From Spirochaetota bacterium (lineage in GTDB: Bacteria; Spirochaetota; UBA4802; JAFGJZ01): a stretch of DNA of 64,000 nucleotides. Positions within the stretch are counted from its first letter, which is position 1. Each line of letters opens with the position of its first letter. Under the pieces are notes generated by a model. It ran no database searches. It had not been told where the DNA came from and saw only the letters and a program-made list of their open reading frames with translations. Below, piece after piece: positions 10,112 through 33,531 of this stretch. The DNA lies in contig JAQIBV010000039.1 of NCBI GenBank assembly GCA_027858855.1, positions 18,544 through 82,543 on the forward strand. The letters are read 5' to 3'. The position numbers and the translations under genes were made by a program.

Positions 10112-10802
10112 TATTATAGAGATACGTAATCTTGAAAAAATTTATGGTATGGGGCGTAATGCTCTCCGTGTCCTTAATGGTATTGATCTTGATATCGGAC
10201 AGGGCGAGGTTGTCTCAATCGTGGGGGCTTCAGGTGCCGGAAAGTCAACGCTACTGCACTGTATTGGTTGTCTGGATACTTTTCAGCGTGGATCGCTTTC
10301 AATTAACGGACGTGAATTATCGGGATTTAATGTAGAAGAACTTTCCGGTTTCAGAAATCGCACAATGGGATTCATTTTTCAGGCGAATAATCTTCTGCCT
10401 GAATTTACAGCCCTTGAAAACGTCATGATTCCTCTTCTTATTCGTAGGATGAATAAAAAACGGGCAAAAGTTGAGGCACTGAAAGTTATCGAGCGCTTCG
10501 ATCTTTCCGACCGTCTTGATCATAAACCAGCTGAAATGTCTGGTGGCGAATGTCAACGAATTGCAGTAGCGCGAGCCATTGTAGGAAAACCGGCTCTTAT
10601 TCTGGCAGATGAACCAACCGGAAGTCTTGATAGTAAAAACTCCGAGATTCTTATCGACATTCTTTTTGACCTTGGACGCGAAAATAATTCAACAATAGTT
10701 ATTGTATCGCATGACCCGTTGATTGCGGCGAAAACAAAGCGAACAGTTCATATTGCAGATGGGAAAATAGTGGATAAAAAAGAAGCAGTGGAGGTTTTAT
10801 GA
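10104..10802 (+). CDS. lolD: Lipoprotein-releasing system ATP-binding protein LolD
   Basis: Walker A GASGAGKST, ABC signature LSGGECQRIAVARA, Walker B ILADEPTG. Confidence 0.85.
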   Translation: MSNIIEIRNLEKIYGMGRNALRVLNGIDLDIGQGEVVSIVGASGAGKSTLLHCIGCLDTFQRGSLSINGRELSGFNVEELSGFRNRTMGFIFQANNLLPEFTALENVMIPLLIRRMNKKRAKVEALKVIERFDLSDRLDHKPAEMSGGECQRIAVARAIVGKPALILADEPTGSLDSKNSEILIDILFDLGRENNSTIVIVSHDPLIAAKTKRTVHIADGKIVDKKEAVEVL

Positions 10803-12418: not shown

Positions 12419-12492
12419 ATGTGATCTCATAGATGTGATCTCATAGATGTGATCTTATAGATGTAATCTCATAGATGTAATCTCATAGATGG
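12414..12492. repeat. Tandem direct repeat, 14-bp unit CATAGATGTGATCT x 5.6 (3 identical copies, then TATAGATGTAATCT, CATAGATGTAATCT, partial CATAGATGG)
   Basis: Read directly; first copy contains the TAG stop of the upstream gene; last partial copy runs into the GGAG Shine-Dalgarno of the downstream gene. Confidence 0.9.
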
Positions 12493-12501
12493 AGCTAATT
12501 T

Positions 12502-13578
12502 ATGCCCGGGCTTATTGAAACCATAACGGATCCGCAGCATTTTCAGAGAATATTCTACGATTTTTTTCTCAAGGGTGAAGTCTATCTGAAAACTGCAAGT
12601 GGTAATTTCAAAATCCATTTTTTAGGATACACGAATGGGCAAGCGGCTCTTAAAATTCCTATTATTAAAAATATGCCGCCTTCCTGTGTCATACTCTGTC
12701 GGATTCCTGGTGAAACAATTTATGCACAGTTAAAACTTATCGAGAAACAGGAAGACGAGAATTATCTTTTATCACCAGTAAAAATTCAGATCATCAGTGC
12801 TGCCCGTAACGAACCCCGTCGTTCCATATCGGGTAAGGGCAAACAGCTTCTCTTTGTAACCAAGGTAATTTCGGACTCAATAATTGAACGATCGATTGCA
12901 TTTGATCAACGTAAAGCTGATCTTGCAAAACAGAAAGTTTCCGATCAACTTCAAACTATGTTTGCTTTTAAAAAGATCTATTTTTCTAATGAGGGAACAA
13001 GCGATGACCGGATGCGTTATTTTTATTCACGCAAAGCCGACTATCTTATTCCCGATTTCAAATCACTTGATCTTAAAAATCCGGTTCAACAGGAATTTAA
13101 TAATTCAATCTTGAGCAAGGATTACTATATTCAAAACCGCGGAACAGTAACGTCAGAAGCCTCTGCAGCAATCTATTACCGGAGTGCAATTCCCTTCGGA
13201 TATATTCAGGTAAATCATAGCAAAAAACTCAATCAATCAGTACTTGATGTTATTAAAAATCTTTCAATGCAGCTATCCAGGATTCTTATATCGGCTAAAA
13301 TATTTAAACCGCTAGATGAAAATCTTTTGGTCAGTGATCTATCAGAAAAGGGTGTGGGTATTGTTTTTCGTGAACGCTCCTACATCCGTTTTTTCCCAGA
13401 AAAAAGTTATGTTCACTTTGAACTTATACTTCCCGATCAGATTCATATTCCTATGCTGACAATTGTCAGGAATATTACATTTCTGGATAATAAAGTAATT
13501 AAAGCCGGATGTGAAATTATTTCAATTGACGATAGTGCAAAGCAGGTATACAATCATTTTCTTGATTCAATCAAGTAG
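12502..13578 (+). CDS. Hypothetical protein with degenerate PilZ-like motifs (possible c-di-GMP effector)
   Basis: RNEPRR (RxxxR-like) and DLSEKGVGIV (DxSxxG) motifs, but non-canonical spacing; GGAG RBS 7 nt upstream. Confidence 0.3.
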   Translation: MPGLIETITDPQHFQRIFYDFFLKGEVYLKTASGNFKIHFLGYTNGQAALKIPIIKNMPPSCVILCRIPGETIYAQLKLIEKQEDENYLLSPVKIQIISAARNEPRRSISGKGKQLLFVTKVISDSIIERSIAFDQRKADLAKQKVSDQLQTMFAFKKIYFSNEGTSDDRMRYFYSRKADYLIPDFKSLDLKNPVQQEFNNSILSKDYYIQNRGTVTSEASAAIYYRSAIPFGYIQVNHSKKLNQSVLDVIKNLSMQLSRILISAKIFKPLDENLLVSDLSEKGVGIVFRERSYIRFFPEKSYVHFELILPDQIHIPMLTIVRNITFLDNKVIKAGCEIISIDDSAKQVYNHFLDSIK

Positions 13579-19685: not shown

Positions 19686-20309
19686 CTACTCCATGTTTTT
19701 CATTTTTAATAATGATAGAACAGTTGTCATCATTGAATTTGTATCATATTCAATAGGATCCAGAGTCTGAATTATTCCTGTTGAAAGAAGAATTACCTGA
19801 ATTGTACGGCTTACTTGTCTAATTTTGGTTATATCAGTAGCCATTTCGGGAGAGAGCTCTTTCATTAAATTTTCAAATAACTGCAAGTGATGACGTAAAA
19901 ACGATTTGACCAGTTTCTTAATTTTTTTATCTTCAAAACTGTAAATAATTATGTTCATCAGAATAATGACATTATCCTGATTCATAAGGAATTTTTCAAT
20001 TGAATACATAGTTGAAAGAAGAGCCTTGTCACTCATTTTTGTCGCAACCTTCAGAACGTTTATCTGCTCTTCTTCGATAGAGTTAAAGAAATCCTCAATC
20101 AATTCCATGAAGAGACTCTCTTTTGTTGGGAAGTAGTGGCGCACTCCACCTTTTGACATACCAGCCTCATCGGCAACATCGTTGAGTGAAATCTGAGAAT
20201 AGACATCTTTCAAAAGACATCGCTTAAGAGCATCCAGTATTTCTGCTTTTTTTTGTTCAACTTTCTCTGTTTTTTCCATTTGTTTATTTCCCACAAAAAG
20301 TAAAGTCAT
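19686..20309 (-). CDS. TetR/AcrR-family transcriptional regulator
   Basis: N-terminal HTH LNDVADEAGMSKGGVRHYFPTKESLFMELIE. Confidence 0.8.
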   Translation of the reverse strand: MTLLFVGNKQMEKTEKVEQKKAEILDALKRCLLKDVYSQISLNDVADEAGMSKGGVRHYFPTKESLFMELIEDFFNSIEEEQINVLKVATKMSDKALLSTMYSIEKFLMNQDNVIILMNIIIYSFEDKKIKKLVKSFLRHHLQLFENLMKELSPEMATDITKIRQVSRTIQVILLSTGIIQTLDPIEYDTNSMMTTVLSLLKMKNME

Positions 20310-20371
20310 GCTACAATCTGCTCACCTTAATTAGCTTACATAAAAAAGTAAAGGGTATTTCAAAAATTTTT

Positions 20372-21631
20372 TTATTCTGTTTTCACACAGGGCAAGTCAC
20401 TCCATCGTGTTGTGTAAGCCGGTGATAAAAATTGTCGTTTCATTTGCCAGCTTTGTGTTAATCCCTCGGAAGCAAGAACAACAGTTTTTGATCCGTAACG
20501 GATGTTAAGAGAATCCATAACACTCATCAAGCGGGAATCCCGTTCTATATGATCATTCTGAGAAAAAAGTGAATACTGCTGTTCATCTTTTGGTGTTAAT
20601 CCGTGAAGCATTATGCCTGTTTTTTTATATTGATATCCTTCCTTGAAAAGAGTATGAAGCAATCGTGTTGCTTCTTTAGTAATAATAGGGCTTGAGTCGG
20701 TTGGATAATTAAGAGTAACAGTTGCCGAGTTTGAATAGTGCGGTTCATCTTTAAATAAGTTGGTAGCAATGTATACGGTAAGCGATGAACATAGTAAATT
20801 CATTGAACGTAAACGTGTGGCGGCACGGCAACCGTATTCGTGCACAGATTCACTTAATAATGCAAGCTTCGATACCGGGGTACCGAAAGAACGCGACGAG
20901 ACGATAGAACGGCGGTTAGGTGGGTACTTTTCCATCTTTATACAGGGAGTACCATTCAGCTCAAGTAGCGTGCGTAACCCTGTAACGGCCATCCGTTTAC
21001 GCACCCAGCTTTCGGGCATGTCAATAAATTCAGCTGTTGTGTTTATGCCGTGATGTGCAAGCAGCCGAGCATGTTGGACTCCTATTCCCCAGACCTGGCT
21101 TACGGGCACCATCTGTAAAATTTTTTTTCGATTAAAATCTGTAATACAGCAGCAACCATTTTTAACATTTTTTTTCGCATAAGCATTAGCAGCCTTAGCC
21201 AGCGTTTTTGTTGTACCCGCGCCAATTGACATTGGGATGCCAGTGCAACGTAAAATAGTTTCACGAATCTCTTCAGCAAGACTAAGAGCACTTTTTTCAG
21301 AAAGAGATTCCGTTGCAAGAAAGGCTTCATCGATTGAGTAGACTTCACATTCTTCGCTGAATGTGGCAAGCAGATCCATTACCCTTCGTGACATATCACC
21401 GTAGAGTGTATAGTTTGACGAGAGGTAGATTCCGTTATGGCGGTCAAGAAAGCTCCGCCACTTAAACAGGGGAGCTCCCCTGGGAATACCCAATGCCTTC
21501 GCTTCATTCGAAAGGGCTACGGCACATCCGTCGTTGTTCGAAAGAATTATAACGGGGCGTCCCCTCAGTCGCGGGTTAAATACCCGCTCGCACGAGACGT
21601 AAAAATTATTGCAGTCGGCAAGAAAATACAT
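20372..21631 (-). CDS. umuC: Y-family translesion DNA polymerase UmuC (start moved to the ATG giving MYFLADCNNFYVSCE)
   Basis: N-terminus matches the UmuC/DinB MFALCDVNNFYASCE pattern; SNNDGCAVALSNEAKALGI palm-domain motif; ATG overlaps the umuD TGA (TGATG). Confidence 0.8.
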   Translation of the reverse strand: MYFLADCNNFYVSCERVFNPRLRGRPVIILSNNDGCAVALSNEAKALGIPRGAPLFKWRSFLDRHNGIYLSSNYTLYGDMSRRVMDLLATFSEECEVYSIDEAFLATESLSEKSALSLAEEIRETILRCTGIPMSIGAGTTKTLAKAANAYAKKNVKNGCCCITDFNRKKILQMVPVSQVWGIGVQHARLLAHHGINTTAEFIDMPESWVRKRMAVTGLRTLLELNGTPCIKMEKYPPNRRSIVSSRSFGTPVSKLALLSESVHEYGCRAATRLRSMNLLCSSLTVYIATNLFKDEPHYSNSATVTLNYPTDSSPIITKEATRLLHTLFKEGYQYKKTGIMLHGLTPKDEQQYSLFSQNDHIERDSRLMSVMDSLNIRYGSKTVVLASEGLTQSWQMKRQFLSPAYTTRWSDLPCVKTE

Positions 21632-22062
21632 CAGAATGCCTGATGAATGATGTGGGTTACAACACCCCAAACTTCGAATTCGGCTTCTGGCTCAATAGAG
21701 ATATCATCATATTGTGGACTCTCGGCTCGCAGAAGGGCTCCGTTTTCCTTTACCAGCAGCCGCTTGACTGTCAGTTCCCCATCAATGACTGCGATAACAA
21801 TTTTCCCAGAGAGCGGTGTCAGTGATCGGTCTACGATCAGTATGTCGCCGGGATGAATTGCAGCATCCTTCATGGAATTTCCAGCTACGCGAACGAAGAA
21901 TGTGGACGCCGGATTTTTCACAAGATGCCGATTAAGATCAAGCGTGCTTTCGATATAATCTTCGGCTGGAGAGGGAAAACCGGCCTGTACCGAAGAACCG
22001 AAAAGTGGCCTTGAGCCCTGTGGCGCGGTTTCATCGGGGCGATTGAAAGTTAAGTTACTCAT
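21631..22062 (-). CDS. umuD: UmuD-like S24 peptidase (LexA-type autoprotease domain without DNA-binding HTH)
   Basis: 143 aa. Putative Ala-Gly cleavage site (SVQAGFPSP); catalytic Ser (AGNSM) and Lys (TVKRLL) context. GGAG RBS. Confidence 0.7.
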   Translation of the reverse strand: MSNLTFNRPDETAPQGSRPLFGSSVQAGFPSPAEDYIESTLDLNRHLVKNPASTFFVRVAGNSMKDAAIHPGDILIVDRSLTPLSGKIVIAVIDGELTVKRLLVKENGALLRAESPQYDDISIEPEAEFEVWGVVTHIIHQAF

Positions 22063-22166
22063 TGCTGCTCCTTCTTGTAATTAGTCTCAGGGTTTTGGAA
22101 AACAGCTTAACAAGTGTATAGTTATTTAGCAAGAACAAATTATGCCTTTTATCTCAGGCAAATTGG

Positions 22167-22197
22167 TTGACACACAATTTGTTACGGTAATTATAAT
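22167..22197 (+). promoter_or_regulatory. Candidate promoter TTGACA-N17/19-ATTATA/TATAAT upstream of the polyprenyl synthase gene (region is shared with the divergent umuDC promoter)
   Basis: Consensus -35 at 22167-22172; TATAAT at 22192-22197. Confidence 0.4.
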
Positions 22198-22250
22198 GAT
22201 TCAATACCATCCAAACTATCGGCTGGATAATAAAATATCAGTGAAAACGA

Positions 22251-23315
22251 ATGACCAACTATAAACAGACAGAGGCTCGTTATATCAAATCGGTCGACTC
22301 TGCAATTGAGCGATTCTTTGAATTCCGTAAAAAAGAGACTCAATTTACAGAGATTACCCGCAGTTACGAATTGATGCAGGAGTTCTGCCTTCGCCCGGGT
22401 AAAAGAGTACGCCCGGTTTTGATGTTACTTGCCTGTGAAGGATACAATTCGCAGATCGCCACCGAATCAGTGATAGAGTGCGCCGCTCTTATTGAGATTA
22501 TGCACTCGTTTTTACTTATTCATGATGATATTGTAGATAATGCAGATTTTCGTCGGGGAGCTCCCTCTTTGCACCGAATGTTTCCGGGAAATACTCGTGC
22601 AGGTGAGGCGCTGGCTCTTGTATCGGCGGATATGCTCATCTTTGATGTACTCTCGCACATAATGCAGTCTGATCTTGATGATGCAATACGAAAGCTGTTT
22701 TTAGCATGTTTTTCCCGTTGCTACCACTCGACCTGTGTAGGGCAAATTCTGGACCTGAAGGCTTCAGGGGGAGGGCTTGATGATACGGCTGCTCCCTATC
22801 GGGTTGCACACTACAAAACCGCATTTTATACCTTTGTCTATCCGGTTCTGTTTGGATCAATTCTTTCAGGAGAAAATGATTTAAATCAGCACAGGTTGAT
22901 TGAAGAGCTTTTTGTCGAACCCGGGATAGCATTTCAGATTCGTGATGACTACATTGGTATTTTTTCTTCAGAGGATGATTCGGGAAAAAGTGCCGCAGTC
23001 GATCTGCATGAATGCAAGGTAACAACAATTATTGCCGATGCGGCCGCATTGATGAAAGAATCTGAAAAAAATGAATTTGCGGATCTTTTTTTTAAGATGG
23101 AAAAAACTGAATCGGATATTATACTTTTACGAAAATTGATTACAAAAACAGGTATTCTTCAAAAAATAGACAAAAGGCTGACGAATACGGCTTCCAATTT
23201 TAAAAATGGGATAGAAGCCTTAGATGTTAGCGAAGAGTACAAAGGCTATTTCCTTCAGATAGTTAAACAGGTATGCATGCTACCCCTAAAAATCTCAGGA
23301 GAGATCAATGAATAA
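22251..23315 (+). CDS. Polyprenyl (isoprenyl) diphosphate synthase
   Basis: First Asp-rich motif LLIHDDIVDNADFRRG; second motif FQIRDDYIGIF. Confidence 0.8.
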   Translation: MTNYKQTEARYIKSVDSAIERFFEFRKKETQFTEITRSYELMQEFCLRPGKRVRPVLMLLACEGYNSQIATESVIECAALIEIMHSFLLIHDDIVDNADFRRGAPSLHRMFPGNTRAGEALALVSADMLIFDVLSHIMQSDLDDAIRKLFLACFSRCYHSTCVGQILDLKASGGGLDDTAAPYRVAHYKTAFYTFVYPVLFGSILSGENDLNQHRLIEELFVEPGIAFQIRDDYIGIFSSEDDSGKSAAVDLHECKVTTIIADAAALMKESEKNEFADLFFKMEKTESDIILLRKLITKTGILQKIDKRLTNTASNFKNGIEALDVSEEYKGYFLQIVKQVCMLPLKISGEINE

Positions 23316-24201
23316 TGAAAATAGATACTTTATAAAGGAACTTGCTTCAACTCTTGCAACACATGAGGTATTGAGCTCGCTTTACCATCAGGATGTTCAC
23401 TCGACACCCATGCCGTCAGTTGAAAAGTTGAAGCTGATAGTTTCCAAATTAAGGGCTGTTCTTTTTCCCGGATACTTTGGTTTAGCCTCAATGCGTAGCG
23501 GTTCTGTTGAGTTTTATATCGGATCCCTGGTAGATGAGCTCTATGAACTCTTATCTATCCAGATTCAACGTGGTTTCTGTTTTATTTGCAATGAACGTAA
23601 TGAGCAGTGCCGGGTATGTGATGATAAGTCGGCGGATATATGCCGTGAATTCTTACAAAAATTACCAGCCATACGTCACCTTCTTGCCACAGATGCCATG
23701 GCCGGATATGAGGGTGACCCGGCATCTTTCAGTGTCGGAGAGATTATTTTCAGTTATCCGAGCATAAAGGCCTTAACGAATTATCGAATCGCTCATGAAC
23801 TGATAAAACTGGATGTTCCTCTAATTCCACGGATTATTTCAGAGCTGGCGCACTCAGAAACCGGAATTGACATTCATCCCGGTGCGGTAATTGGTGAGAG
23901 CTGCTTTATCGATCATGGAACAGGAGTCGTTATCGGTGAGACCTGCCGTATTGGAAAGAATGTGCGAATCTATCAGGGGGTTACACTAGGAGCGAAGAGT
24001 TTTCCTTTGGACGAAAATGGTAATCCTATTAAGGGAATCGACCGTCATCCTAAAGTTGGAAACGACGTAATAATCTATGCTGGGGCAACAATTCTTGGTA
24101 CAGTAATGATTGGTGATGCTGCCGAGATCGGTGGAAACGTCTGGATTACGCGCGATGTGCCTGCGGGTAGCAAGGTGAGGGCTCAATCTTTTGAGAAGTA
24201 G
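23308..24201 (+). CDS. cysE: Serine O-acetyltransferase (left-handed beta-helix hexapeptide acyltransferase)
   Basis: SATase N-domain plus hexapeptide repeats (GIDIHPGAVIGESCFIDHGTGVVIGETCRIGKNVRIYQGVTLG). Confidence 0.75.
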   Translation: MNNENRYFIKELASTLATHEVLSSLYHQDVHSTPMPSVEKLKLIVSKLRAVLFPGYFGLASMRSGSVEFYIGSLVDELYELLSIQIQRGFCFICNERNEQCRVCDDKSADICREFLQKLPAIRHLLATDAMAGYEGDPASFSVGEIIFSYPSIKALTNYRIAHELIKLDVPLIPRIISELAHSETGIDIHPGAVIGESCFIDHGTGVVIGETCRIGKNVRIYQGVTLGAKSFPLDENGNPIKGIDRHPKVGNDVIIYAGATILGTVMIGDAAEIGGNVWITRDVPAGSKVRAQSFEK

Positions 24202-24268
24202 TGATAACGGCTTCCGTTCGAGCTAACAGGAACGAAAACCGTTTCAAAACCGGATCTGTCAGAAAATT

Positions 24269-24418
24269 TTACAGAATTTCCGACTTCTCGAGCTCACTAA
24301 TTCCCTTTCTAAGAACATTGTACTGCTCTGTACCCTTCTCAAAGCTGTCAAGATATCTCTGAAAATATGAAATCTGCTCTTTTTTCCAGCTGTGCATATC
24401 GTGTTTTGAATGAATCAT
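24269..24418 (-). CDS. Small ORF (49 aa, MIHSKHDMHSWKKEQISYFQRYLDSF...), hypothetical
   Basis: Hand-translated; shorter than the ORF-track threshold; no obvious RBS; lies in the cysE-recC intergenic region. Confidence 0.15.
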   Translation of the reverse strand: MIHSKHDMHSWKKEQISYFQRYLDSFEKGTEQYNVLRKGISELEKSEIL

Positions 24419-24530
24419 TTACGGATGCCTCCTTTTGTTGTAGTCTCTTAATCTAATTGTCGGCAGATGCTCCAGTGTATGTACATATATTTTGGTATCC
24501 TCTGTAAATTAACTGTGGTATAACTGCAAT

Positions 24531-24566
24531 ACCATGCATGGTATGCATACCATGCATATAATGCAT
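24531..24566. promoter_or_regulatory. Array of four ATGCAT hexamers at exact 9-bp phase (24534, 24543, 24552, 24561) forming overlapping palindromes ACCATGCATGGT / GGTATGCATACC, overlapping a perfect TATAAT (24557-24562) about 100 nt upstream of recC
   Basis: Read directly from the sequence. Confidence 0.5.
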
Positions 24567-24663
24567 TTTCTGTTGTTGCTTCTAACAAAAGGATTTGACT
24601 ATTGTACACTGCTACTGGTAAACAAGACTTGAATGGTAATTAAAGCCTGAACTAGGAGCCTGC

Positions 24664-27600
24664 ATGCCACTTTATCTGTACCAGAGTAACCGCATCGAGA
24701 ATATAATCCCGCCATTGGCAGAAGCGTTACAAAGTCACTCTTCTGATGAAAATCTATTGGCAACCGATTACTGTCTGGTTCAGAGTATAGGTATGGGGCG
24801 CTACTTCGCCCTCGAGTTGGCAGGTTGTTCATCAATATTTGCCAACTATCGTATGGTTTACCCAAATGCTTTTTTGCAACTGCTGGCTTCGCATCATGGT
24901 ATTCGTGACCAGGTAGCTACCAAAGAGCAGATTGGCTGGAAAATATTCTCACTCATGAAATCGGGCTCTGTTAGCCATCCAGCACTCGAACACTACTGTG
25001 ATGGTTCGGATGATCTGAAACTTTTTACCTCTGCATATGCACTAGCCGATATCTTTGATCAATACGCGATGTATAGACCGACTATGGTTCAAGCCTGGGA
25101 CGAGGGACATGCCATTAAAATTGATAAAGGACAAACCGGTTCTCTTGATGTACAGGATGAGTGGCAATACATCTTATGGCGTCAGATATTCGATGGTACA
25201 ATGAATCATAAAGCCTCTTTTCAGAAGGAGGTAATTGCTTCAATTTCAAGCATTAGTGATCTTCCCTTTAAACGGCTTTTTATTCTCGGGGTATCTACGA
25301 TTCCTCTATTCTTTCTTGAAGTTATACATCATATATCACAATTCTGTAATATTCATGTAGGACTATTGGCTCCCTCTGGTGACTATTGGGAGGATATTGT
25401 AAACAAGAAGTACCGTTTTTTTACAGCACTGAATCAGCAGGCTTCTGTTGATATTTCGGACTATTTTTTTACCGGCAATACAATTTTAGGGTCTAACGGA
25501 ATGCTGGGGCGTGACTTCAATCAAATTTTATCTGATTATTTCGGAGATGAACTTGGAATTGACAGGGGAGATTTTTTCGAAGATGAACCTGATACAATAC
25601 TGGGTAACATACAACGCGATATCCGTGAGCTTAATGACCGTGGAATTTTTGGAGACAAAGAGGGTGCTAAATTTATTCGTCATGAGAGTGATCGTTCCCT
25701 TCAGATACATGGCGTGCACTCGAAGCGGCGAGAACTTGAAATTCTGCATGATACTCTGCTGGATATACTTAACAACGACAGTTCAGTAGAGCTTCGTGAT
25801 ATTCTGGTTATGACTCCGGCCATCAATGACTATGCGCCCTACATACAGGCCGTCTTTAATGAGTTCCGGGGCAGTGAATCGTTTCTTGACTTTTCAATTG
25901 CCGACCTTTCCCTTGCGACAGATAGCGAAACCGTACCCGCTTTTTTAAAGATAATCGCTCTTTATCGCACCCGTTTTACATGCAGTCAGATTGTCTCACT
26001 TCTGCGCTACCGTCCGCTTACAGAAAAAGCTGGTATTCCTGAAGATGAAATAGAGCGTGTTGGATTCTGGTTGCACGAGGCTTCATTTTGCTGGGGGCGT
26101 AATGCTGAAGATAGAAAAAAACTGTTGAATGTCAGTTATGATGAATACTCCTTGTCATTCGCACTTACTCGGCTTCTTCACGGTTATCTTTTCCCTCGTA
26201 ATTACGATCAAACCTTCGAAGACGTTTTCCCTTCCGGTGATTTCGAGGGAGAGCAGGCTATTTTAATGGGAAAGCTGATAGCGTTTGTTTCGCGTATCGA
26301 GCAGTTTACCCACAGTTGCGAAGAGCTACGCAGCTGTTCCGGTTGGGAGTCCCTTCTGCATGATCTGGTTCACGACCTCTTTTCAGATAATGACAATTAT
26401 GCAGAATCGCGTGAAATGCTTTTCTCGTCAATATCACGTTGTACATCCGCTTCTGATTCTATCTGTTCGGATGAGGTTCCATTTGAGATTATAGCACATC
26501 TTTTAGATACTCAATTAACTACAGAGAGCCGGGCTTTCGGTTTCATCGATGGACGCATCACTTTCTGTGAAATGTTGCCGATGCGGTCGATTCCCTTTAA
26601 GGTGATTGCAATTATCGGTTTTAATGAAAGCGACTTTCCTCGTGCGGCAATGAGAAACAGCTATGACCTGATTCATCGGTATCCACGAACAGGTGATCGT
26701 TCAACAAGATATGATGATCGATATCTTTTTCTTGAGACACTTCTTTCGGCTCGAAAGTTTTTATACTTCAGCTTTCAAGCCTATAAGGAGAGCGACAATA
26801 GTCGACTGTTTCCTTCACCATTGATTTCAGAATTACTACATTATCTTGAAGAAAACTGTGAAAATTTCAACGCCGCCGAATTTATTCTGTATCATAAGTT
26901 GCAGCCATTTTCTGCAGATTATGTAGCGACACGTAAAACGAATAGTAGTGAAAAAGATTCATCTGATTATTTTACCTACGACAAACGTCAGCCTCATAGG
27001 GCCCAGATCTATTATAAAAGTAAAAAAAATAAATCTGTATTTATATCAGATTCTATTACTTCAGAACCGGAATCTGCATCATTTCACCTTACACTCACAT
27101 CCTTAAAACGATTTTTCCAAAACAGTTCCCGCTTTTTTATGCAGCAACGTCTTGGTATCAGGTTTACCATCAGCTCTGATGAATATGAAAACAGTGAGCC
27201 ATATCAGATGTCAAAAGGAACCAGACGTTCATTGATCTTAACAATGGTTGAAGAGATTATTTCTGATAAAAAAATCAAGTCTGATAAAAAAACACTTCGC
27301 ATGAATGCTATTTTGCCACTTTTCGCTCCGGGAGATGCTGAGTATAGTTCTATAACAGCAGAGGCACACGATCTTTATGACCGGCTTTCATCTGAAACCA
27401 ATGTCACCACCTTTTCAAATTGTGATGCTAGGTTCAGCACTGACGGAAAAGAATCAACAGATACAACTCGATCGGTTCTGGTTACAGGCATATTTGATTT
27501 AGTAAACAGTGATGGACACTTTGTTCTCTTTCCATCGCCAAGAAAGCAGGCTGATCGTGAAATTGCTGGTTGGTGGCTGGAACATCTGCTCTTTCAATTT

Positions 27601-28017
27601 TCAGATGCCGACTGCAGGCGCAGCACGATTTTACTCTCTGACACCAAAATAACCTTTGAACAACTCGACAGAGATGTTGCGACTCTGTTTTTGAAGGGAA
27701 TTATATCGCTTTATGAAGATGGTCTCTATTATCCTTTGCGATTTGACTCTGCTGACTCCTATATGTTATACAGGGAAAGTCTTGATAGTGATAAAGATAT
27801 CTCTGATATTCTTGAAACAATAAAATATAAGAGTGGTGCCAGGTATGGTACTGACACCATCTATAATGATTATATAAAGAAGACCCAACAATACCGTCAA
27901 ATCTGCTTTCCTGATTCTGATATTTTTTATTCCCAACAGTTCACCGAATGCTCATTACGCTTTTTCAAAGGAATAAACGGTTATTTTTCCGAGTTGATGG
28001 AGGTTGAGAATGTCTGA
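24664..28017 (+). CDS. recC: Exodeoxyribonuclease V gamma subunit RecC
   Basis: N-terminus MPLYLYQSNRIENIIPPLAEAL resembles RecC N-termini (MLRVYHSNRLD...); size 1117 aa; operon with recB/recD. Confidence 0.85.
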   Translation: MPLYLYQSNRIENIIPPLAEALQSHSSDENLLATDYCLVQSIGMGRYFALELAGCSSIFANYRMVYPNAFLQLLASHHGIRDQVATKEQIGWKIFSLMKSGSVSHPALEHYCDGSDDLKLFTSAYALADIFDQYAMYRPTMVQAWDEGHAIKIDKGQTGSLDVQDEWQYILWRQIFDGTMNHKASFQKEVIASISSISDLPFKRLFILGVSTIPLFFLEVIHHISQFCNIHVGLLAPSGDYWEDIVNKKYRFFTALNQQASVDISDYFFTGNTILGSNGMLGRDFNQILSDYFGDELGIDRGDFFEDEPDTILGNIQRDIRELNDRGIFGDKEGAKFIRHESDRSLQIHGVHSKRRELEILHDTLLDILNNDSSVELRDILVMTPAINDYAPYIQAVFNEFRGSESFLDFSIADLSLATDSETVPAFLKIIALYRTRFTCSQIVSLLRYRPLTEKAGIPEDEIERVGFWLHEASFCWGRNAEDRKKLLNVSYDEYSLSFALTRLLHGYLFPRNYDQTFEDVFPSGDFEGEQAILMGKLIAFVSRIEQFTHSCEELRSCSGWESLLHDLVHDLFSDNDNYAESREMLFSSISRCTSASDSICSDEVPFEIIAHLLDTQLTTESRAFGFIDGRITFCEMLPMRSIPFKVIAIIGFNESDFPRAAMRNSYDLIHRYPRTGDRSTRYDDRYLFLETLLSARKFLYFSFQAYKESDNSRLFPSPLISELLHYLEENCENFNAAEFILYHKLQPFSADYVATRKTNSSEKDSSDYFTYDKRQPHRAQIYYKSKKNKSVFISDSITSEPESASFHLTLTSLKRFFQNSSRFFMQQRLGIRFTISSDEYENSEPYQMSKGTRRSLILTMVEEIISDKKIKSDKKTLRMNAILPLFAPGDAEYSSITAEAHDLYDRLSSETNVTTFSNCDARFSTDGKESTDTTRSVLVTGIFDLVNSDGHFVLFPSPRKQADREIAGWWLEHLLFQFSDADCRRSTILLSDTKITFEQLDRDVATLFLKGIISLYEDGLYYPLRFDSADSYMLYRESLDSDKDISDILETIKYKSGARYGTDTIYNDYIKKTQQYRQICFPDSDIFYSQQFTECSLRFFKGINGYFSELMEVENV

Positions 28018-31000
28018 TAATATCTCTGAGCTTGATTTAACAATACCACCTTCATCAGGTTCGGTTTTAGTAGAGGCCGGAGCCGGAACTGGTAAAACCT
28101 TCTCTATTGCGATTCTCTTTTTATGGGAAGTCATTGTGAAATACAGGAGTGTTGATTCGATTCTGGTTGTTACATTCACCGAAGCTGCAACTAGTGAATT
28201 GAAAGAACGTATACGTAATTTTTTAATGCTGGCACGCGATATTCTTTCAGGATCTTCAAAGAATGAACCGGCAGCTATATACATCAGAACTATCTGTGAA
28301 TACAATGCTGATGAAAAGGAGAAAGAGCGCCGAATGCTTATAGTGGCACAGGCAATCTATAATTTTGATGATGTTTCAATCTTTACCATTCATGGGTTCT
28401 GCCAGAGGATGCTCTCAGAGAATGCGTTTGAAACAGGCTCTCCATTTGCAACAGGGCTTCTGGACAATGAAGACGATGTGGTACGACAAATTGTAGATGA
28501 TTATTACCGCTCGTACATTTACCGTCAAGATATAAGCAGCTATTCTGCTCTTGTTGATAGCAATGTAAGTGTTAACCGACTTACGAAATGGACTCTTCAG
28601 TACATAAAACAGAATGATATAGTTATTACTCCAGAGACAGAGGTTGATATTACCAATTCTTTCGTTGATAAAGAGATGATAGAGTTAATCGAAGATATTA
28701 CTGAATGCGCGTTGGTTCTTCGCGAAACAGCAATTGAGTGCCGTGCCGAAATAGAATCATTTTTCAATGTTGATAATAAATTTAAAGTAGCATATACTAT
28801 GAAACTGGTAGTTGAAAATCTTGATCTATGTATAAAGTTTGATCCTAATACTATTTCGTTTGATAAAGGGGCTAAAAAGGCGGTTCAATTTTTTTCACCA
28901 GTAAAGATAAAGTCCAAAGGATTGAAAAAAGCTTTCATTGATGAACCGGTTTCACACTTCTTCTTTGAAATGAGCGAGACTCTATTATCCAAGATTGAAA
29001 AGTATGAAGCAAAAATGGAAGAGATCCCGCTTCGTGTAACAGCTCTTTATCATGATCTTTTCGCATATACCAAAAAACGTCTCTCTGAATACAAGTCGGA
29101 ACGCCACCTGATAAGCTACAATGACATGCTTGCAAATCTGGATGCTGCCTTGACTGGAATGACAGATCTGGCTGCCCGAATACGTACACGATACAGATCT
29201 GTCTTTATTGATGAGTTTCAGGATACAGATCCATTACAGTATCGAATATTCTCTACTATATTTAAAGAGGCTGACGTTCCGCTCTACTTTATCGGAGATC
29301 CGAAACAGGCAATATATTCGTTTCGAGGTGCCGACTTGAACACCTACCTAGAGGCCGCTAAAGCCTGTTCGAAAACCTATTCGCTAACTACTAATTATCG
29401 CTCTACAGAAGATGTTCTTTCTCCGATAAACAGACTCTTCAGTGGCAAGGCACCTTTTATTGAAGAGGGAATAGTCTATGCTGATGCGCAAACTGCGGGA
29501 CAACCACAAGAGAGAGAAGTAATCGATGATGGGCAAACCAATTTTATAATTCCTTTAATTAATGATATGAATTCTGGAGGCACACAGTCCCTGATAGCCG
29601 AACATGTTGCTATGGAAATCGAAAAGATATTAAAACTTTCAGCTGATGGAAAAACATGCTTAACAGATTCCAATAGTAAACAACCACGTTCGATTCGCCC
29701 GTCCGATATTGCTGTGCTGGTAAGAACATCGACTCAGGGAAGTATAGTCGCAAATGCAATACGTGAACGTGGAATTACCGCAATCGAGATTTCTCCTGAC
29801 TCAGTATACAGAAGTCATGAGTTTTTTGAAATGGAGCTTTTACTTTTTTCTCTTGCTGACCCCTATAGTAGCAGCAAACTATTTGCCCTTTTATCGACCC
29901 GTATCTGTTCATTTTCTGCAAGTAAGATCGACAGCCTTCATATTGGTGAAAGTGAAGAATACAATGATTTGCTTCTGGCAATACGCAATTATGCGGAATT
30001 GTGGCGCGAAAAGGGATTTCATGCCGCAGTACTCGCAATCTTCGACGATTTCAAAACCTATGAATCAGTTCTTGGTCTGGAGGGTGGAGAACGTATTATC
30101 ACTAATTACATGCATATTATTGAGCTTTTTCATGATTACTGTCTTAAAACCGGTGCCGGTCCAGATGAATTACTTTTTCACATTCAACTGATAAAGAGAG
30201 GGGATACCGGCGAAAATGAGACTGAAGTCCCAGTGCGTATGGAAAGTGATGAACAGGCTGTTATAATCTCGACAATCCATAAAAGCAAAGGGTTGGAATA
30301 TCCTATAGTTTTCGTACCATACTGCTGGAAAAATTCTGCGCCACTTTCCGGTTCCCCATTTACTTTTCACCGCAATGGTAAACGCTATCTGGATATTAGT
30401 GCCTCCTCCAAGTCTGATAATTACGCTACCTGCTGTAATGAAATCCTATCCGAAAATATCCGTCTGCTTTATGTTGCTCTAACACGTGCACGTAGCCGAG
30501 TTTACCTCTACTGGGGCGAAATAAAAAATAGAAACAGGAATTTTTACTCTTCGGCACTCGATTATCTTCTGTTCAGAGATTGTGTTTCAGATATAGAAGA
30601 TGTCGTTATGAATTTACGTAGCAATCTTGAAGAAGAGAAGCCGTCGGTGTATAATAGGGTTAAAGACTATTTTAAAGGGTATGCAGTAACCGCTTATAAT
30701 GTGATTGAAGTTCCGGCTGAGTCCGATTATATCCCTGTAGAGCGCACATGCAACTTTTCAAGCCGCGAATTTACACGATCCATCGATAACTCCTGGAAGA
30801 TTAACAGCTATTCCTACATCACTTCTGGAATTCGGAATGAAGGTCAACATGAGCGTCACTATCAGAGTGGAAATCCTGTTCCAGACGACATGCTTCCTCC
30901 CGGGGCTGCTGCTGGAAATTGCTTCCATGCTATTCTTGAACAGATCGCCTTTATTCAACCGGTCTCTGATTATGATGAACTGATAGAAGATCAGTTACGG

Positions 31001-31570
31001 ATGCACGGCTTTAATAAAACTTACAAAGATTATGTGAGTCGTTGTATTGATTCGGTACTTAAAGCACCTCTTCAAAAAAATTTTTCACTTTCATTACTGA
31101 CTGACCGCGACCGAATTCACGAAATGGAATTTTATTTTCCCATAGAATCGGTTAAACTGCAAAATCTGATATCAGTTGTGAATAGCTACTATCCTGAATT
31201 TCACTCTACAGAAAACACCCTCTTTTCTTCGGAACTAAAGGGTTACATGAAGGGTTTCATAGATTTGGTCTTTCAAAAAGAGGGCAAGCTTTATATAGCA
31301 GACTGGAAGAGTAATTACCTGTCAGGCAGTTATGAAGAGAACGCAATAACCGATTCTATGAAAATGCATAACTATCATATTCAACTGGTTATCTACTCTA
31401 TTGCCCTATGGCGGTATATTCGATCTCGAACGGGCACTTATAACTATCAGGTCTTCGGGGGAGTCTACTATTTTTATGTTCGAGGGATGGAGACTGATTC
31501 ACAGAATGGAGTCTATTTTAACCGTCCGCAACAGAAGTTTCTAGAAGAGGCTAACAGCTGCTTTTTATAA
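28010..31570 (+). CDS. recB: Exodeoxyribonuclease V beta subunit RecB (UvrD-like helicase + C-terminal PD-(D/E)xK nuclease); ATG at 28010 preferred over the TTG at 28004
   Basis: Walker A EAGAGTGKTFS; helicase motifs (VFIDEFQDTD; YRS near the end of the helicase domain; VALTRAR); C-terminal nuclease motifs (GFIDLV...DWKSN). GGAGG RBS 7 nt before 28010. Confidence 0.9.
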   Translation: MSDNISELDLTIPPSSGSVLVEAGAGTGKTFSIAILFLWEVIVKYRSVDSILVVTFTEAATSELKERIRNFLMLARDILSGSSKNEPAAIYIRTICEYNADEKEKERRMLIVAQAIYNFDDVSIFTIHGFCQRMLSENAFETGSPFATGLLDNEDDVVRQIVDDYYRSYIYRQDISSYSALVDSNVSVNRLTKWTLQYIKQNDIVITPETEVDITNSFVDKEMIELIEDITECALVLRETAIECRAEIESFFNVDNKFKVAYTMKLVVENLDLCIKFDPNTISFDKGAKKAVQFFSPVKIKSKGLKKAFIDEPVSHFFFEMSETLLSKIEKYEAKMEEIPLRVTALYHDLFAYTKKRLSEYKSERHLISYNDMLANLDAALTGMTDLAARIRTRYRSVFIDEFQDTDPLQYRIFSTIFKEADVPLYFIGDPKQAIYSFRGADLNTYLEAAKACSKTYSLTTNYRSTEDVLSPINRLFSGKAPFIEEGIVYADAQTAGQPQEREVIDDGQTNFIIPLINDMNSGGTQSLIAEHVAMEIEKILKLSADGKTCLTDSNSKQPRSIRPSDIAVLVRTSTQGSIVANAIRERGITAIEISPDSVYRSHEFFEMELLLFSLADPYSSSKLFALLSTRICSFSASKIDSLHIGESEEYNDLLLAIRNYAELWREKGFHAAVLAIFDDFKTYESVLGLEGGERIITNYMHIIELFHDYCLKTGAGPDELLFHIQLIKRGDTGENETEVPVRMESDEQAVIISTIHKSKGLEYPIVFVPYCWKNSAPLSGSPFTFHRNGKRYLDISASSKSDNYATCCNEILSENIRLLYVALTRARSRVYLYWGEIKNRNRNFYSSALDYLLFRDCVSDIEDVVMNLRSNLEEEKPSVYNRVKDYFKGYAVTAYNVIEVPAESDYIPVERTCNFSSREFTRSIDNSWKINSYSYITSGIRNEGQHERHYQSGNPVPDDMLPPGAAAGNCFHAILEQIAFIQPVSDYDELIEDQLRMHGFNKTYKDYVSRCIDSVLKAPLQKNFSLSLLTDRDRIHEMEFYFPIESVKLQNLISVVNSYYPEFHSTENTLFSSELKGYMKGFIDLVFQKEGKLYIADWKSNYLSGSYEENAITDSMKMHNYHIQLVIYSIALWRYIRSRTGTYNYQVFGGVYYFYVRGMETDSQNGVYFNRPQQKFLEEANSCFL

Positions 31571-31620: not shown

Positions 31621-33531
31621 ATGATAACCGATATTAAATCAACAGAAGAATTTTACAGCAGATACGAATTACTCTTTTCTTCAGGTCTGTTTTGTTCTAC
31701 CGATCGATACTGTGCTGATTACATATTGAAACATGAAGCATGTTATGACCCGACCTATCATCTTCTGCTTCTGGTACTTTCATACTCCTCATTACGCTCT
31801 CATGTCTGTTACCGATTTGGGAGTGATCCTTTTGGTGAAGACGCTCTGAAGCTGACAGATGAAACTGTTATTGCCCAACTGCAACAGCTATGTGAACTAT
31901 TATCTAAATGTGAAAGTCACTTTTTAAAACAGTTCGCAACTGTGAGTGATGGAAGTAGCGTTACACCTGTTGTGATATATAACGACAGCATCTATCTTTA
32001 TAAAAACTTCTATCATGAAAAGTCAGCTGCTCGCATTTTAATAGAGCGTGCCTCACGTGCACCTCGAACAGATGTTGCAGAGATGTCATTGGCGGCACGA
32101 CTCCTTTTCCCTGACTGCGATAAACCAGGTTCTGTGAATTGGCAGTATATCGCTGCACAGGTTTCACTTCGTAACTTTTTAACTGTAATCACAGGAGGCC
32201 CCGGTACAGGGAAGACGACTACAGTATTTAAAATATTCCTGCTGCTCTACTCTTTATATCAGAGTCAGGGGCGTACTTTTTCTGCCGTACTTACAGCGCC
32301 GACAGGTAAGGCTGCGGCTCGAATGCAGGCGGCATTCGGACAGGCTCGTCGTACTATTCTTGAAGACAAGACCTTACCTGATCTGTTCCGTTTAACTGAT
32401 GACACGGGCGACATAAACTCACTCACGCTTCACAGGCTAATAGGTCTGGGACGGAATGTTTCTGAAAATGATATTACATCGCTTCCCTACGACCTAGTGA
32501 TAGTGGATGAGGCATCCATGATGTCTCTTTCTCAACTCTATAAGCTCCTGATTCATCTGCGGGATGATACTTCTTTAATTTTACTGGGTGACAGTCAACA
32601 GCTCTCTTCAGTGGATGCTGGAGCTGTACTTGCAGATATTTGCGAAGGGGGTAACCGTACGCTCTATTCTGAACAGTTTACAACTTTAGCACAGGAGTGC
32701 GGCTGTAAAATTCCTTCTGAACTTTGCACAGGCTTAAGATACGGGCTGCGTGACTCTGTTGTATATCTTACCGAGAGCTACCGCTTTTCAGAAAGGAGTT
32801 CAATCGGCTTATGTGCCACCGCTATAAAAGCCGGAGATACCGGCCGGTTTATGGATCTTATCGAAGAAGGAAATTCTGAAATAAAATTTATCGAAACTGA
32901 CGGTAAAAATGATATGAAACAATCTATTGAATCAGTTATTGCAATGATTAATAAATCTTCGTCAGATCCGTATGGTTCTTTTTTGAATAATGTATTGATT
33001 GAAGATAAAATTATCATTTTTAATCAGACCATGTTCTTATGTGCAGTACGCAGTGGCCCTTGCGGTGTTGAGTCTGTAAATACTATTCTGGAAAACTATC
33101 TTCGTAAACAGTGTGACAAATCTGGGGGCTCTTTTGATACACGACCTATACTTATTACAAAGAATATGTATGATCTTGATCTTTACAATGGAGATACGGG
33201 TCTGTCTATTCAGGAGGGTAAAGCCTGTTATTTTTATCATTTGAATGAAAACGACTATTCAATCAAAAAAATAAATTTCTCATTAATCAATCACTTTGAG
33301 CCTGTGTACTGTATGACAGTACACAAAAGCCAAGGATCTGAATACAATAGCGTGGTAATAGTATTACCCGATCGTCAATCACCAGTTTTGTCACGAGAGC
33401 TATTATACACTGCATTCACACGTGCAAAAAAAAGAGTCTATATTATTGGGAGGCAGGACATAGTTAAATACACTATTGAAACAGCCCGTAATCGTATGTC
33501 GGGTCTTTCAACTCAGTTATATGGTAGTTAA
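31621..33531 (+). CDS. recD: Exodeoxyribonuclease V alpha subunit RecD
   Basis: Walker A ITGGPGTGKTTTV; Walker B IVDEASM; C-terminal helicase motifs (TVHKSQGSE, TAFTRAKK). Confidence 0.85.
   Translation: MITDIKSTEEFYSRYELLFSSGLFCSTDRYCADYILKHEACYDPTYHLLLLVLSYSSLRSHVCYRFGSDPFGEDALKLTDETVIAQLQQLCELLSKCESHFLKQFATVSDGSSVTPVVIYNDSIYLYKNFYHEKSAARILIERASRAPRTDVAEMSLAARLLFPDCDKPGSVNWQYIAAQVSLRNFLTVITGGPGTGKTTTVFKIFLLLYSLYQSQGRTFSAVLTAPTGKAAARMQAAFGQARRTILEDKTLPDLFRLTDDTGDINSLTLHRLIGLGRNVSENDITSLPYDLVIVDEASMMSLSQLYKLLIHLRDDTSLILLGDSQQLSSVDAGAVLADICEGGNRTLYSEQFTTLAQECGCKIPSELCTGLRYGLRDSVVYLTESYRFSERSSIGLCATAIKAGDTGRFMDLIEEGNSEIKFIETDGKNDMKQSIESVIAMINKSSSDPYGSFLNNVLIEDKIIIFNQTMFLCAVRSGPCGVESVNTILENYLRKQCDKSGGSFDTRPILITKNMYDLDLYNGDTGLSIQEGKACYFYHLNENDYSIKKINFSLINHFEPVYCMTVHKSQGSEYNSVVIVLPDRQSPVLSRELLYTAFTRAKKRVYIIGRQDIVKYTIETARNRMSGLSTQLYGS

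What the first reader, a model, noticed from the sequence alone, without database searches (positions are those of the whole stretch)
24531..24566. Phased ATGCAT x4 operator-like array (exact 9-bp period) overlapping a perfect TATAAT upstream of recBCD
Four palindromic hexamers ATGCAT start at 24534, 24543, 24552 and 24561. They read ATGCATggt / ATGCATacc / ATGCATata / ATGCATttt and generate the overlapping 12-bp palindromes ACCATGCATGGT and GGTATGCATACC.

The third and fourth units flank a consensus -10 TATAAT (24557-24562). The first hexamer sits where a -35 would be. This arrangement is a textbook repressor-over-promoter layout.

It lies about 100 nt upstream of recC, in the region divergent from a possible 49-aa ORF (24269-24418). 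In the well-studied systems (E. coli, for example), recBCD is constitutively expressed, so a structured operator here would be unusual. No LexA-box consensus (CTGT-N8-ACAG, GAAC-N4-GTTC, TTTG-N5-CAAA) fits this element.
Basis: seen in the sequence. Interest (0 to 1): 0.55.

Follow-up and report, generated by a model that had tools for sequence, protein, structure and literature searches.

The report
Strain-specific palindromic repeat upstream of recC
Four evenly spaced ATGCAT palindromes really do sit on the only good promoter element in front of the recCBD DNA-repair genes of an uncultured spirochaete, and they look like a repressor binding site. The only related genome available lacks them and no binding protein can be named, so the regulatory role is an untested guess.

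Summary
**Observation: confirmed.** ATGCAT starts at 24534, 24543, 24552 and 24561. The array contains a perfect 24-bp palindrome (24534-24557) and a 16-bp palindrome (24529-24544). A consensus TATAAT lies at 24557-24562, 97 nt separate the array from the recC start codon, and nothing similar occurs elsewhere in the 64 kb.

**Context.**
- recC, recB and recD follow on the + strand.
- The divergent 49-aa ORF is a real, conserved gene. It is a helical hairpin, not a recognisable DNA-binding protein.

**Interpretation: only partly supported.**
- The geometry fits a repressor sitting over a promoter, but the "-35" hexamer matches TTGACA at only 2 of 6 positions.
- No cognate regulator and no second site were found.
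- The array is absent from the only other lineage with the same gene order (RecC 55% identical).
- Five assemblies that carry it are the same strain, so they add no information.
- Across bacteria, ATGCAT-N3 arrays are mostly plain 9-bp tandem repeats, many of them coding. The few with reverse-complement spacers looked at were intergenic, and those with clear gene calls lay downstream of a gene.

**Best reading (about 0.4):** a lineage-specific operator bound cooperatively, as MetJ binds its met boxes.

**Main rival (about 0.35):** a young, functionless 18-bp duplication of a palindrome.

Interest is modest.

The parts
24529..24566 (.). The whole array: ATACC-ATGCAT-GGT-ATGCAT-ACC-ATGCAT-ATA-ATGCAT. 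It is equivalent to two copies of an 18-bp unit, ATACCATGCATGGTATGC and ATACCATGCATATAATGC (83% identical).
24534..24539 (.). ATGCAT unit 1. It sits 17 bp upstream of TATAAT, at the -35 position, but matches TTGACA at only 2 of 6 positions.
24543..24548 (.). ATGCAT unit 2, the centre of the perfect 24-bp palindrome.
24552..24557 (.). ATGCAT unit 3. Its last base is the first T of TATAAT.
24561..24566 (.). ATGCAT unit 4. Its first two bases are the last two of TATAAT. The spacer before it is ATA where the symmetry would require GGT.
24534..24557 (.). Perfect 24-bp palindrome ATGCATGGTATG|CATACCATGCAT. As single-stranded DNA it folds at -8.9 kcal/mol (z -3.3).
24529..24544 (.). Perfect 16-bp palindrome ATACCATG|CATGGTAT.
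24519..24533 (.). Degenerate extra partial copy of the 18-bp unit (TATAACTGCAATACC), included by Tandem Repeats Finder in its 2.6-copy reading. TGGTAT also recurs at 24493-24498 and 24516-24521.
   Evidence: (D2)
24557..24562 (+). TATAAT, the only perfect -10 hexamer in the intergenic region. The inferred recC transcription start is near 24569, giving a 5' UTR of about 95 nt. This is inference, not mapped.
24654..24658 (+). recC ribosome-binding site AGGAG, 5 nt before the ATG.
24664..28017 (+). recC (1117 aa), the first gene of recC-recB-recD.
24269..24418 (-). Divergent 49-aa gene. It is conserved (78% amino-acid identity in L003, with 28 of 36 nucleotide differences at third codon positions) and is predicted as a two-helix hairpin. 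It is the other possible target of any regulation exerted from this region.

Best explanation
The array is a lineage-specific protein-binding site, an operator, in the shared control region of recCBD and the divergent 49-aa gene.

**Proposed mechanism (inferred).** A dimeric DNA-binding protein recognises each ATGCAT dyad, or the longer dyads ATACCATGCATGGTAT and TGGTATGCATACCA. Neighbouring dimers bind cooperatively at 9-bp intervals, spiralling around about 35 bp of DNA as MetJ does on tandem met boxes or Omega does on heptad arrays. Because units 3 and 4 share bases with the TATAAT at 24557-24562, occupancy would block RNA polymerase and repress recC-recB-recD. It could also affect the divergent small gene.

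**Shown:** the sequence symmetry, its uniqueness in the window, and its position relative to the -10 hexamer and to both genes.

**Inferred:** that any protein binds, which protein it is, that TATAAT is the recC promoter, and that the effect is repression.
For: - The four-unit array is far beyond chance for random sequence. The 24-bp perfect palindrome exceeds every one of 30 shuffles.
- No other phased palindromic-hexamer array exists in the 64 kb.
- It lies 5' of both flanking genes, in a 245-bp divergent region, where terminators are not expected. By contrast, the reverse-complement-spacer ATGCAT arrays looked at in other genomes were intergenic, and those with clear gene calls lay downstream of a gene (L005, L008, L034, L073). 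One identical 30-bp version recurs on three contigs of a single MAG, like a dispersed repeat.
- It overlaps the only perfect -10 hexamer upstream of recC.
- recC needs its own promoter, because the gene immediately upstream is on the opposite strand.
- The spacer alternation GGT/ACC makes every 9-bp step a dyad axis. This is the geometry of tandem palindromic operators; the comparison with MetJ met boxes rests on established knowledge, not on a test here.
- No Rfam family matches the region.
Against: - The array is absent from the only other lineage with the same gene order (polyprenyl synthase, acetyltransferase, 49-aa gene, recC), although the 49-aa gene next to it is well conserved.
- There is no second site or half-site cluster in the 64 kb, nor in about 4 kb of extra contig.
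- No DNA-binding gene is adjacent. The small divergent protein is predicted as a helical hairpin without the N-terminal strand of ribbon-helix-helix proteins. It has no specific fold match, and its relatives have no such arrays upstream.
- The presumed promoter has no -35 match and is not called by the consensus scan.
- The pattern can be produced by duplication of one 18-bp palindromic unit.
- All five assemblies carrying it are identical over 3.9 kb, so there is no evidence of selective maintenance.
Confidence: 0.4

Rival explanations
1. A young, functionless repeat. A short palindromic sequence in an AT-rich intergenic spacer was duplicated by replication slippage or template switching (18-bp unit, 2 to 2.6 copies). 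The overlap with TATAAT is incidental: the TATAAT is simply the diverged spacer of the last unit.
For: - Tandem Repeats Finder reads the region as an 18-bp repeat of 2.6 copies, including a degenerate copy starting at 24519, and as a 9-bp repeat of 4.2 copies. The repeat finder gives two 18-bp copies at 83% identity.
- The array is absent from the orthologous locus of the only related lineage.
- It is a single copy in the window.
- The same window holds another intergenic tandem array, 14 bp x 5.6 copies at 12413-12491, so short tandem duplications do occur in this genome.
- In a scan of bacterial genomes, ATGCAT-N3 x3 arrays are common and mostly plain tandem repeats (80 of 118 loci).
Against: - Slippage alone explains the direct 18-bp repeat. 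It does not explain why the unit is itself an almost perfect palindrome with complementary spacers, giving 29 bp in which every 9-bp step is a dyad.
- Only 8 of 118 arrays elsewhere have reverse-complement spacers.
- The position over the only consensus -10 in a divergent promoter region would be a coincidence.
Confidence: 0.35
2. A structure-forming element rather than a protein site. The perfect palindrome either extrudes as a cruciform under negative supercoiling and modulates the overlapping promoter, or is transcribed from an upstream start and forms a leader hairpin followed by UUUUCUGUUGUU, acting as an attenuator or stabiliser of recC mRNA.
For: - RNA 24525-24585 folds at -19.3 kcal/mol, z -2.6, with 3 of 200 shuffles as good.
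- The 24-mer as DNA folds at -8.9 kcal/mol, z -3.3.
- The hairpin with arms 24534-24548 and 24552-24566 is followed directly by a T-rich run.
- In other genomes, palindromic ATGCAT arrays lie in intergenic positions downstream of a gene (L005, L008, L034, L073).
Against: - The terminator scan does not call it.
- The stem is AT-rich, and the fold of the whole intergenic region is unremarkable (z -1.2).
- No promoter is predicted upstream that would transcribe it. If TATAAT is the promoter, the element is not transcribed at all.
- No Rfam match, and it is not conserved in L003.
Confidence: 0.1
3. A cluster of DNA-methylation target sites. ATGCAT is the specificity of NsiI-type restriction-modification systems. 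The cluster would make the promoter sensitive to methylation state, in the way that GATC clusters work at pap, agn43 and oriC in E. coli.
For: - Four copies of a 6-bp palindrome are packed into 33 bp.
- Outside the array the hexamer is somewhat under-represented: 14 observed against 24.6 expected (order-2 model) or 18.8 (order-4 model).
- The analogy with GATC clusters rests on established knowledge, not on a test here.
Against: - The under-representation is no greater than for many other palindromic hexamers in the window.
- No DNA methyltransferase or restriction gene was recognised in the ORFs scanned. The methyltransferase-domain ORFs at 999-2512 match generic SAM-dependent (small-molecule-type) families, and 5999-7471 matches rRNA methylase families.
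- The complementary GGT/ACC spacers are not explained.
Confidence: 0.05

Closest known systems
MetJ operators: tandem 8-bp met boxes AGACGTCT in E. coli met promoters, bound by a ribbon-helix-helix repressor
   Same: The units are short palindromes repeated head to tail 2-5 times at less than one helical turn. The arrays overlap the promoter, and one dimer per unit binds with cooperative contacts between neighbours. This is the nearest match for how the array would work. The comparison rests on established knowledge.
   Different: The unit here is 9 bp (a 6-bp core plus alternating GGT/ACC spacers) rather than 8 bp, and the sequence is unrelated. The genes are recCBD, not met genes. No MetJ-like or other ribbon-helix-helix protein was identified; the adjacent small protein is predicted as two helices only.
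Iteron or operator arrays of plasmid partition and copy-control systems: Omega heptads of pSM19035, ParG and ParR sites. One example was seen here: 9-bp repeats ATACCGTGC upstream of a parA-like ATPase on Pseudomonas syringae plasmid PP3.
   Same: Phased short repeats with a 7-11 bp period lie directly upstream of the regulated gene. The P. syringae array even shares the 9-bp period and an ATACC(A/G)TGC unit.
   Different: Those arrays are direct repeats next to parA/parB-type genes on plasmids. The array here is chromosomal, has no partition genes nearby, and its units alternate in orientation. The BLAST similarity is at chance level (E = 4).
Repetitive extragenic palindromes and terminator hairpins built from ATGCAT arrays in other genomes: CGGATGCATCCGATGCATCGGATGCATCCG on three contigs of one Gemmatimonadaceae MAG, and the Chloroflexia locus L008 with ATGCAT x4 and ACT/AGT spacers
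   Same: The formal architecture is identical: ATGCAT cores at a 9-bp period with reverse-complement spacers.
   Different: L005, L008, L034 and L073 lie downstream of a gene, and the Gemmatimonadaceae version is present in several copies per genome. The array here is a single copy in 64 kb and lies 5' of both flanking genes.
LexA/SOS boxes upstream of DNA-repair genes
   Same: A palindromic site overlapping the promoter of a recombination-repair operon. A umuDC operon lies 2.5 kb away.
   Different: None of the CTGT-N8-ACAG, GAAC-N4-GTTC or TTTG-N5-CAAA patterns fits. The umuD upstream region carries no ATGCAT array.

Membership tests
Transcription-factor operator (generic) | Dyad-symmetric sequence overlapping or adjacent to core promoter elements | tested here: inconclusive
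   Dyad symmetry is perfect and overlaps a consensus -10. However, the promoter is only inferred: the -35 matches at 2 of 6 positions and the consensus scan finds no promoter.
Transcription-factor operator (generic) | Conservation of the site in orthologous upstream regions | tested here: not met
   Absent from L003/L122/L123/L124, the only other lineage with the same gene order. The five assemblies that have it are one strain, with 0 mismatches in 3.9 kb.
Transcription-factor operator (generic) | Further sites in the same genome (a regulon), or a cognate regulator gene nearby | tested here: not met
   No other full or half site in the 64 kb. The neighbouring small protein is not a recognisable DNA binder. 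The rest of the genome could not be scanned.
Transcription-factor operator (generic) | Specific protein binding and an effect on transcription | not testable with these tools
   Needs EMSA or pull-down, plus reporter or dRNA-seq experiments.
MetJ met-box operator | Tandem 8-bp units close to AGACGTCT upstream of methionine genes | tested here: not met
   The unit is 9 bp with an ATGCAT core, and the downstream genes are recC/recB/recD.
LexA/SOS box | Match to a known LexA consensus (CTGT-N8-ACAG, GAAC-N4-GTTC or TTTG-N5-CAAA) | tested here: not met
   Best matches in 24419-24663 have 2-3 mismatches out of 8 specified bases, and none lies on the array.
Intrinsic terminator or attenuator | G+C-rich stem-loop followed by a U run, downstream of a transcription start | tested here: inconclusive
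   A hairpin followed by TTTTCTGTTGTT exists. The stem has only 4 G-C pairs, the scan does not call it, and no upstream promoter is predicted.
REP/MITE-type dispersed palindromic repeat | Multiple copies per genome, usually at 3' ends of genes | tested here: not met
   BLAST of the intergenic region against the window finds only itself. The location is 5' of both neighbours. Only about 68 kb of the genome could be searched.
Simple tandem repeat (VNTR, contingency locus) | Head-to-tail copies with copy-number variation between strains | tested here: inconclusive
   Tandem Repeats Finder detects periods of 9 and 18 bp. There is no copy-number difference among five assemblies, but they are one strain.
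Known RNA family (Rfam) | Covariance-model match | tested here: not met
   No relevant hit at E <= 1 in 21500-25000.

The most novel reading that the evidence does not exclude
An uncultured spirochaete places recBCD, which is regarded as constitutive and SOS-independent in E. coli, under a dedicated and so far unknown repressor. The repressor polymerises on four ATGCAT dyads spaced 9 bp apart over the promoter. That would be a new DNA-damage or stress regulon with a MetJ/Omega-like binding mode but an unrelated recognition sequence.
Probability: 0.15. Interest if true: 0.55.

Novelty: new member of a known kind. Interest (0 to 1): 0.27.

Why it matters
If the array is an operator, it would be an example of transcriptional control of RecBCD. 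In E. coli the amount of this enzyme is tightly limited, but its transcription is considered constitutive and outside the SOS regulon (PMC12342828). It would also point to an unidentified regulator in a poorly sampled spirochaete lineage.

If the array is only a young duplication, it shows that a striking "operator-like" pattern can arise without function, and that sequence symmetry alone is not evidence of regulation.

As things stand, this is a single unconserved site in one uncultured strain, so its value is as a candidate for a cheap experiment rather than as a discovery.

Tried and rejected
1. **The 49-aa divergent gene as a ribbon-helix-helix autorepressor using the array.** Rejected.
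   - No Pfam or NCBIfam hit.
   - The AlphaFold model (pLDDT 87.6) is two helices, 4-23 and 31-45, with no N-terminal strand. Foldseek against the PDB gives only nonspecific helical-hairpin matches, all with E >= 0.95.
   - The family has 32 representatives. In L125-L128 its members sit after enoyl-CoA hydratase or thiolase genes, with no ATGCAT arrays upstream.
2. **Finding orthologous recC upstream regions.**
   - GTDB genomes gave no relative.
   - The 5.8-billion-protein search gave only one lineage above 32% identity.
   - That lineage (L003, recovered three more times as L122, L123 and L124) lacks the array.
3. **A scan of bacterial genomes for ATGCAT-N3 x3**. It returned more than 118 loci, but they are mostly plain tandem repeats, often coding (MHx, DAS and similar). 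It defines no regulon.
4. **Viral contigs searched with the 18-mer.** Two chance coding matches.
5. **BLAST against plasmids and phages.** Nothing better than E = 0.4.
6. **dif site, replication origin or terminus.** GC skew is positive across the whole window.
7. **Mobile-element insertion.** A 10-bp inverted repeat (24430-24439 and 24584-24593) flanks the region, but no second copy exists in the window and one arm overlaps the small gene's ribosome-binding site.
8. **Sigma-54 and other promoter types.** Checked by eye; the spacing does not fit.
9. **Extending the contig to look for more sites.** Only about 4 kb was gained, with no arrays.
10. **Literature searches for an ATGCAT operator.** Nothing relevant found.

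Full report
**1.

The sequence at 24529-24566 reads ATACC ATGCAT GGT ATGCAT ACC ATGCAT ATA ATGCAT, with ATGCAT starting at 24534, 24543, 24552 and 24561.

- The window contains only 18 ATGCAT in 64 kb, fewer than the mean of 25.9 in dinucleotide shuffles, and four of them are here.
- The four-unit pattern occurs once, while 100 shuffles gave none even with three mismatches allowed.
- No other palindromic hexamer is repeated three times at a period of 7-12 bp anywhere in the window.
- Because the spacers alternate GGT/ACC, every 9-bp step is a dyad axis. The result is a perfect 16-bp palindrome (24529-24544) and a perfect 24-bp palindrome (24534-24557).
- The longest palindrome in 30 shuffles was 20 bp.
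- The fourth spacer is ATA instead of GGT, and this creates TATAAT at 24557-24562.
- The same region can be described as two copies of an 18-bp unit at 83% identity. Tandem Repeats Finder extends it to 2.6 copies with a degenerate copy starting at 24519.

**2. Surroundings**

- recC (24664-28017), recB (28004-31570) and recD (31621-33531) are confirmed by Pfam.
- recC has an AGGAG ribosome-binding site 5 nt before its ATG.
- Upstream on the + strand lie a polyprenyl synthetase and a serine-acetyltransferase-like hexapeptide protein.
- Between that gene and recC, on the minus strand, is a 49-aa ORF (24269-24418) with an AAGGAGG site.
- The 245-bp gap from 24419 to 24663 is therefore a divergent control region, and recC must have its own promoter there.
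- The exact RecC sequence is on record as "MAG: Spirochaetes bacterium", on a 152.8-kb contig.
- The window is ordinary chromosome. GC skew is positive throughout, and no mobile-element, partition or restriction genes were recognised among the ORFs scanned.

**3. Promoter geometry**

- TATAAT is the only perfect -10 hexamer in the region.
- With a 17-bp spacer, the -35 position is the first ATGCAT, which matches TTGACA at 2 of 6 positions.
- There is no TG at the extended -10 position.
- No other candidate on either strand scores better than 8 of 12, and the consensus scan reports no promoter at all.
- The layout is therefore compatible with a repressor sitting over a promoter, but the promoter itself is an inference.

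**4. Comparative evidence**

- RecC has no close relative in the GTDB species genomes.
- In the 5.8-billion-protein collection, only one lineage lies above 32% identity: P0002, at 55%.
- Its contig (L003, found again as L122, L123 and L124) has the same gene order, including a 49-aa ORF.
- That ORF is 78% identical in amino acids. Of 36 nucleotide differences, 28 are at third codon positions, so it is a real gene under purifying selection.
- The intergenic region of L003 has no ATGCAT at all and no comparable repeat or palindrome.
- Four further assemblies from Logan and JGI carry the array. They are identical to the window, two of them over 3.9 kb without a single mismatch, so they are the same strain and say nothing about constraint.
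- The one comparative test available is negative. However, synonymous sites are close to saturation at that distance, so it only excludes an ancient, conserved element.

**5. Is the neighbouring small protein the binder?**

A 49-residue protein next to a phased array suggested a ribbon-helix-helix autorepressor. The evidence is against this.

- There is no Pfam or NCBIfam match.
- A confident AlphaFold model (pLDDT 87.6) has two helices, 4-23 and 31-45, and no N-terminal strand.
- Foldseek finds only nonspecific helical hairpins.
- A profile search found 32 representatives of a family of 40-50-residue proteins, with the motif WKxEQIxYFxxYLxxF...[ST]xEY..I..GIxELE.
- In four loci from other organisms, the gene follows enoyl-CoA hydratase or thiolase genes, is not next to recC, and has no ATGCAT array upstream.

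**6. How common are such arrays?**

- 80 of these are plain direct 9-bp repeats, many inside long ORFs encoding Met-His-X, Asp-Ala-Ser and similar repeats. 30 are mixed. Only 8 have reverse-complement spacers like the array here.
- The reverse-complement-spacer cases looked at are intergenic. L005 lies between rplT and pheS, L008 between convergent genes, and L034 and L073 between same-strand genes; the L034 array sits inside a longer palindrome.
- One identical 30-bp version occurs on three contigs of a single Gemmatimonadaceae MAG, like a dispersed repeat.
- The formal architecture is therefore not unique. What is unusual here is its position 5' of both neighbours.
- Nothing similar is annotated in plasmids or phages.
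- A chance-level hit on a Pseudomonas syringae plasmid showed 9-bp iterons (ATACCGTGC) upstream of a parA-like gene. This is a useful architectural analogue but not a relative.
- Two viral 18-mer matches are chance coding sequence.

**7. Structure**

- As RNA, 24525-24585 folds at -19.3 kcal/mol (z -2.6).
- The 24-mer as DNA folds at -8.9 kcal/mol (z -3.3).
- One hairpin is followed by TTTTCTGTTGTT, but the terminator scan does not call it.
- The fold of the whole intergenic region is unremarkable.
- There is no Rfam match.

**8. Verdict**

The array is real, statistically striking and unique in the window. It sits where an operator would sit.

My best explanation, at about 0.4, is a lineage-specific operator bound cooperatively at 9-bp intervals, which works like MetJ on its met boxes. 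It fails the membership tests for met boxes, LexA boxes, Rfam families and dispersed palindromic repeats.

The main rival, at about 0.35, is a young 18-bp duplication of a palindrome with no function. This explains the lack of conservation and the single copy, but not the internal symmetry or the coincidence with the -10 hexamer.

Structure-based and methylation-based readings are minor.

Transcriptional control of recBCD would be of some interest, because E. coli recBCD is considered constitutive (PMC12342828). With one unconserved site in one uncultured strain and no candidate regulator, the finding is a modest lead rather than a discovery.

Noticed in passing
window 12413-12491: A 14-bp direct tandem repeat, TCATAGATGTGATC x 5.6 copies (95% matches), fills the 83-bp gap between a beta-CASP/RNase J-like gene (10799-12418) and an ORF with no Pfam hit (12502-13578). 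It could be an iteron or operator array, or a minisatellite.
   Followed up: no
window 24269-24418 (-); relatives P0123-P0154; L125-L128: The 49-aa ORF belongs to an unannotated family of 40-50-residue two-helix proteins with the motif WKxEQIxYFxxYLxxF..[ST]xEY..I..GIxELE. The family has 32 representatives at E < 1e-3. In other metagenomic contigs the gene follows enoyl-CoA hydratase or thiolase genes.
   Followed up: partly
window 19686-22062 (-): umuD-like (21631-22062), umuC/IMS (20372-21670) and a TetR-family regulator (19686-20309) lie on the same strand, 2.5 kb upstream of recC. The umuD/polyprenyl-synthase divergent region contains a 7-nt-arm inverted repeat, CAAATTG-N9-CAATTTG (22159-22181), overlapping a perfect TTGACA. 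It may be this organism's SOS-type box.
   Followed up: partly
window 7430-7457: A 28-bp perfect palindrome, CGAGGAGAAAAAGGCCTTTTTCTCCTCG, is the longest in the window. It lies at the junction of the GidB/SpoU-methylase fusion ORF (5999-7471) and the M23 peptidase ORF (7465-8421), both on the minus strand.
   Followed up: no
L005 3682-3705, L023 5558-5581, L027 6553-6576 (Gemmatimonadaceae MAG SMAG_U1736); L089 4868-4900: An identical 30-bp palindromic ATGCAT array, CGGATGCATCCGATGCATCGGATGCATCCG, occurs on three contigs of one MAG. A four-unit version occurs in a Phycisphaerales MAG. It looks like a dispersed REP-like element built on the same architecture.
   Followed up: partly
L096 5312-5491 (Prevotellaceae MAG RUG12014): ATGCATACC x3 and its reverse complement GGTATGCAT x3 flank about 130 bp of very AT-rich DNA, inside a longer inverted repeat. 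It uses the same 9-mer as the window's array. Its nature is unknown: a hairpin element or an assembly artefact.
   Followed up: no
window 24430-24439 and 24584-24593: A perfect 10-nt inverted repeat, TCCTTTTGTT / AACAAAAGGA, brackets the array. As a result, both divergent transcripts would carry AACAAAAGGA in their leaders; on the small gene it includes the ribosome-binding site. It may be chance.
   Followed up: partly
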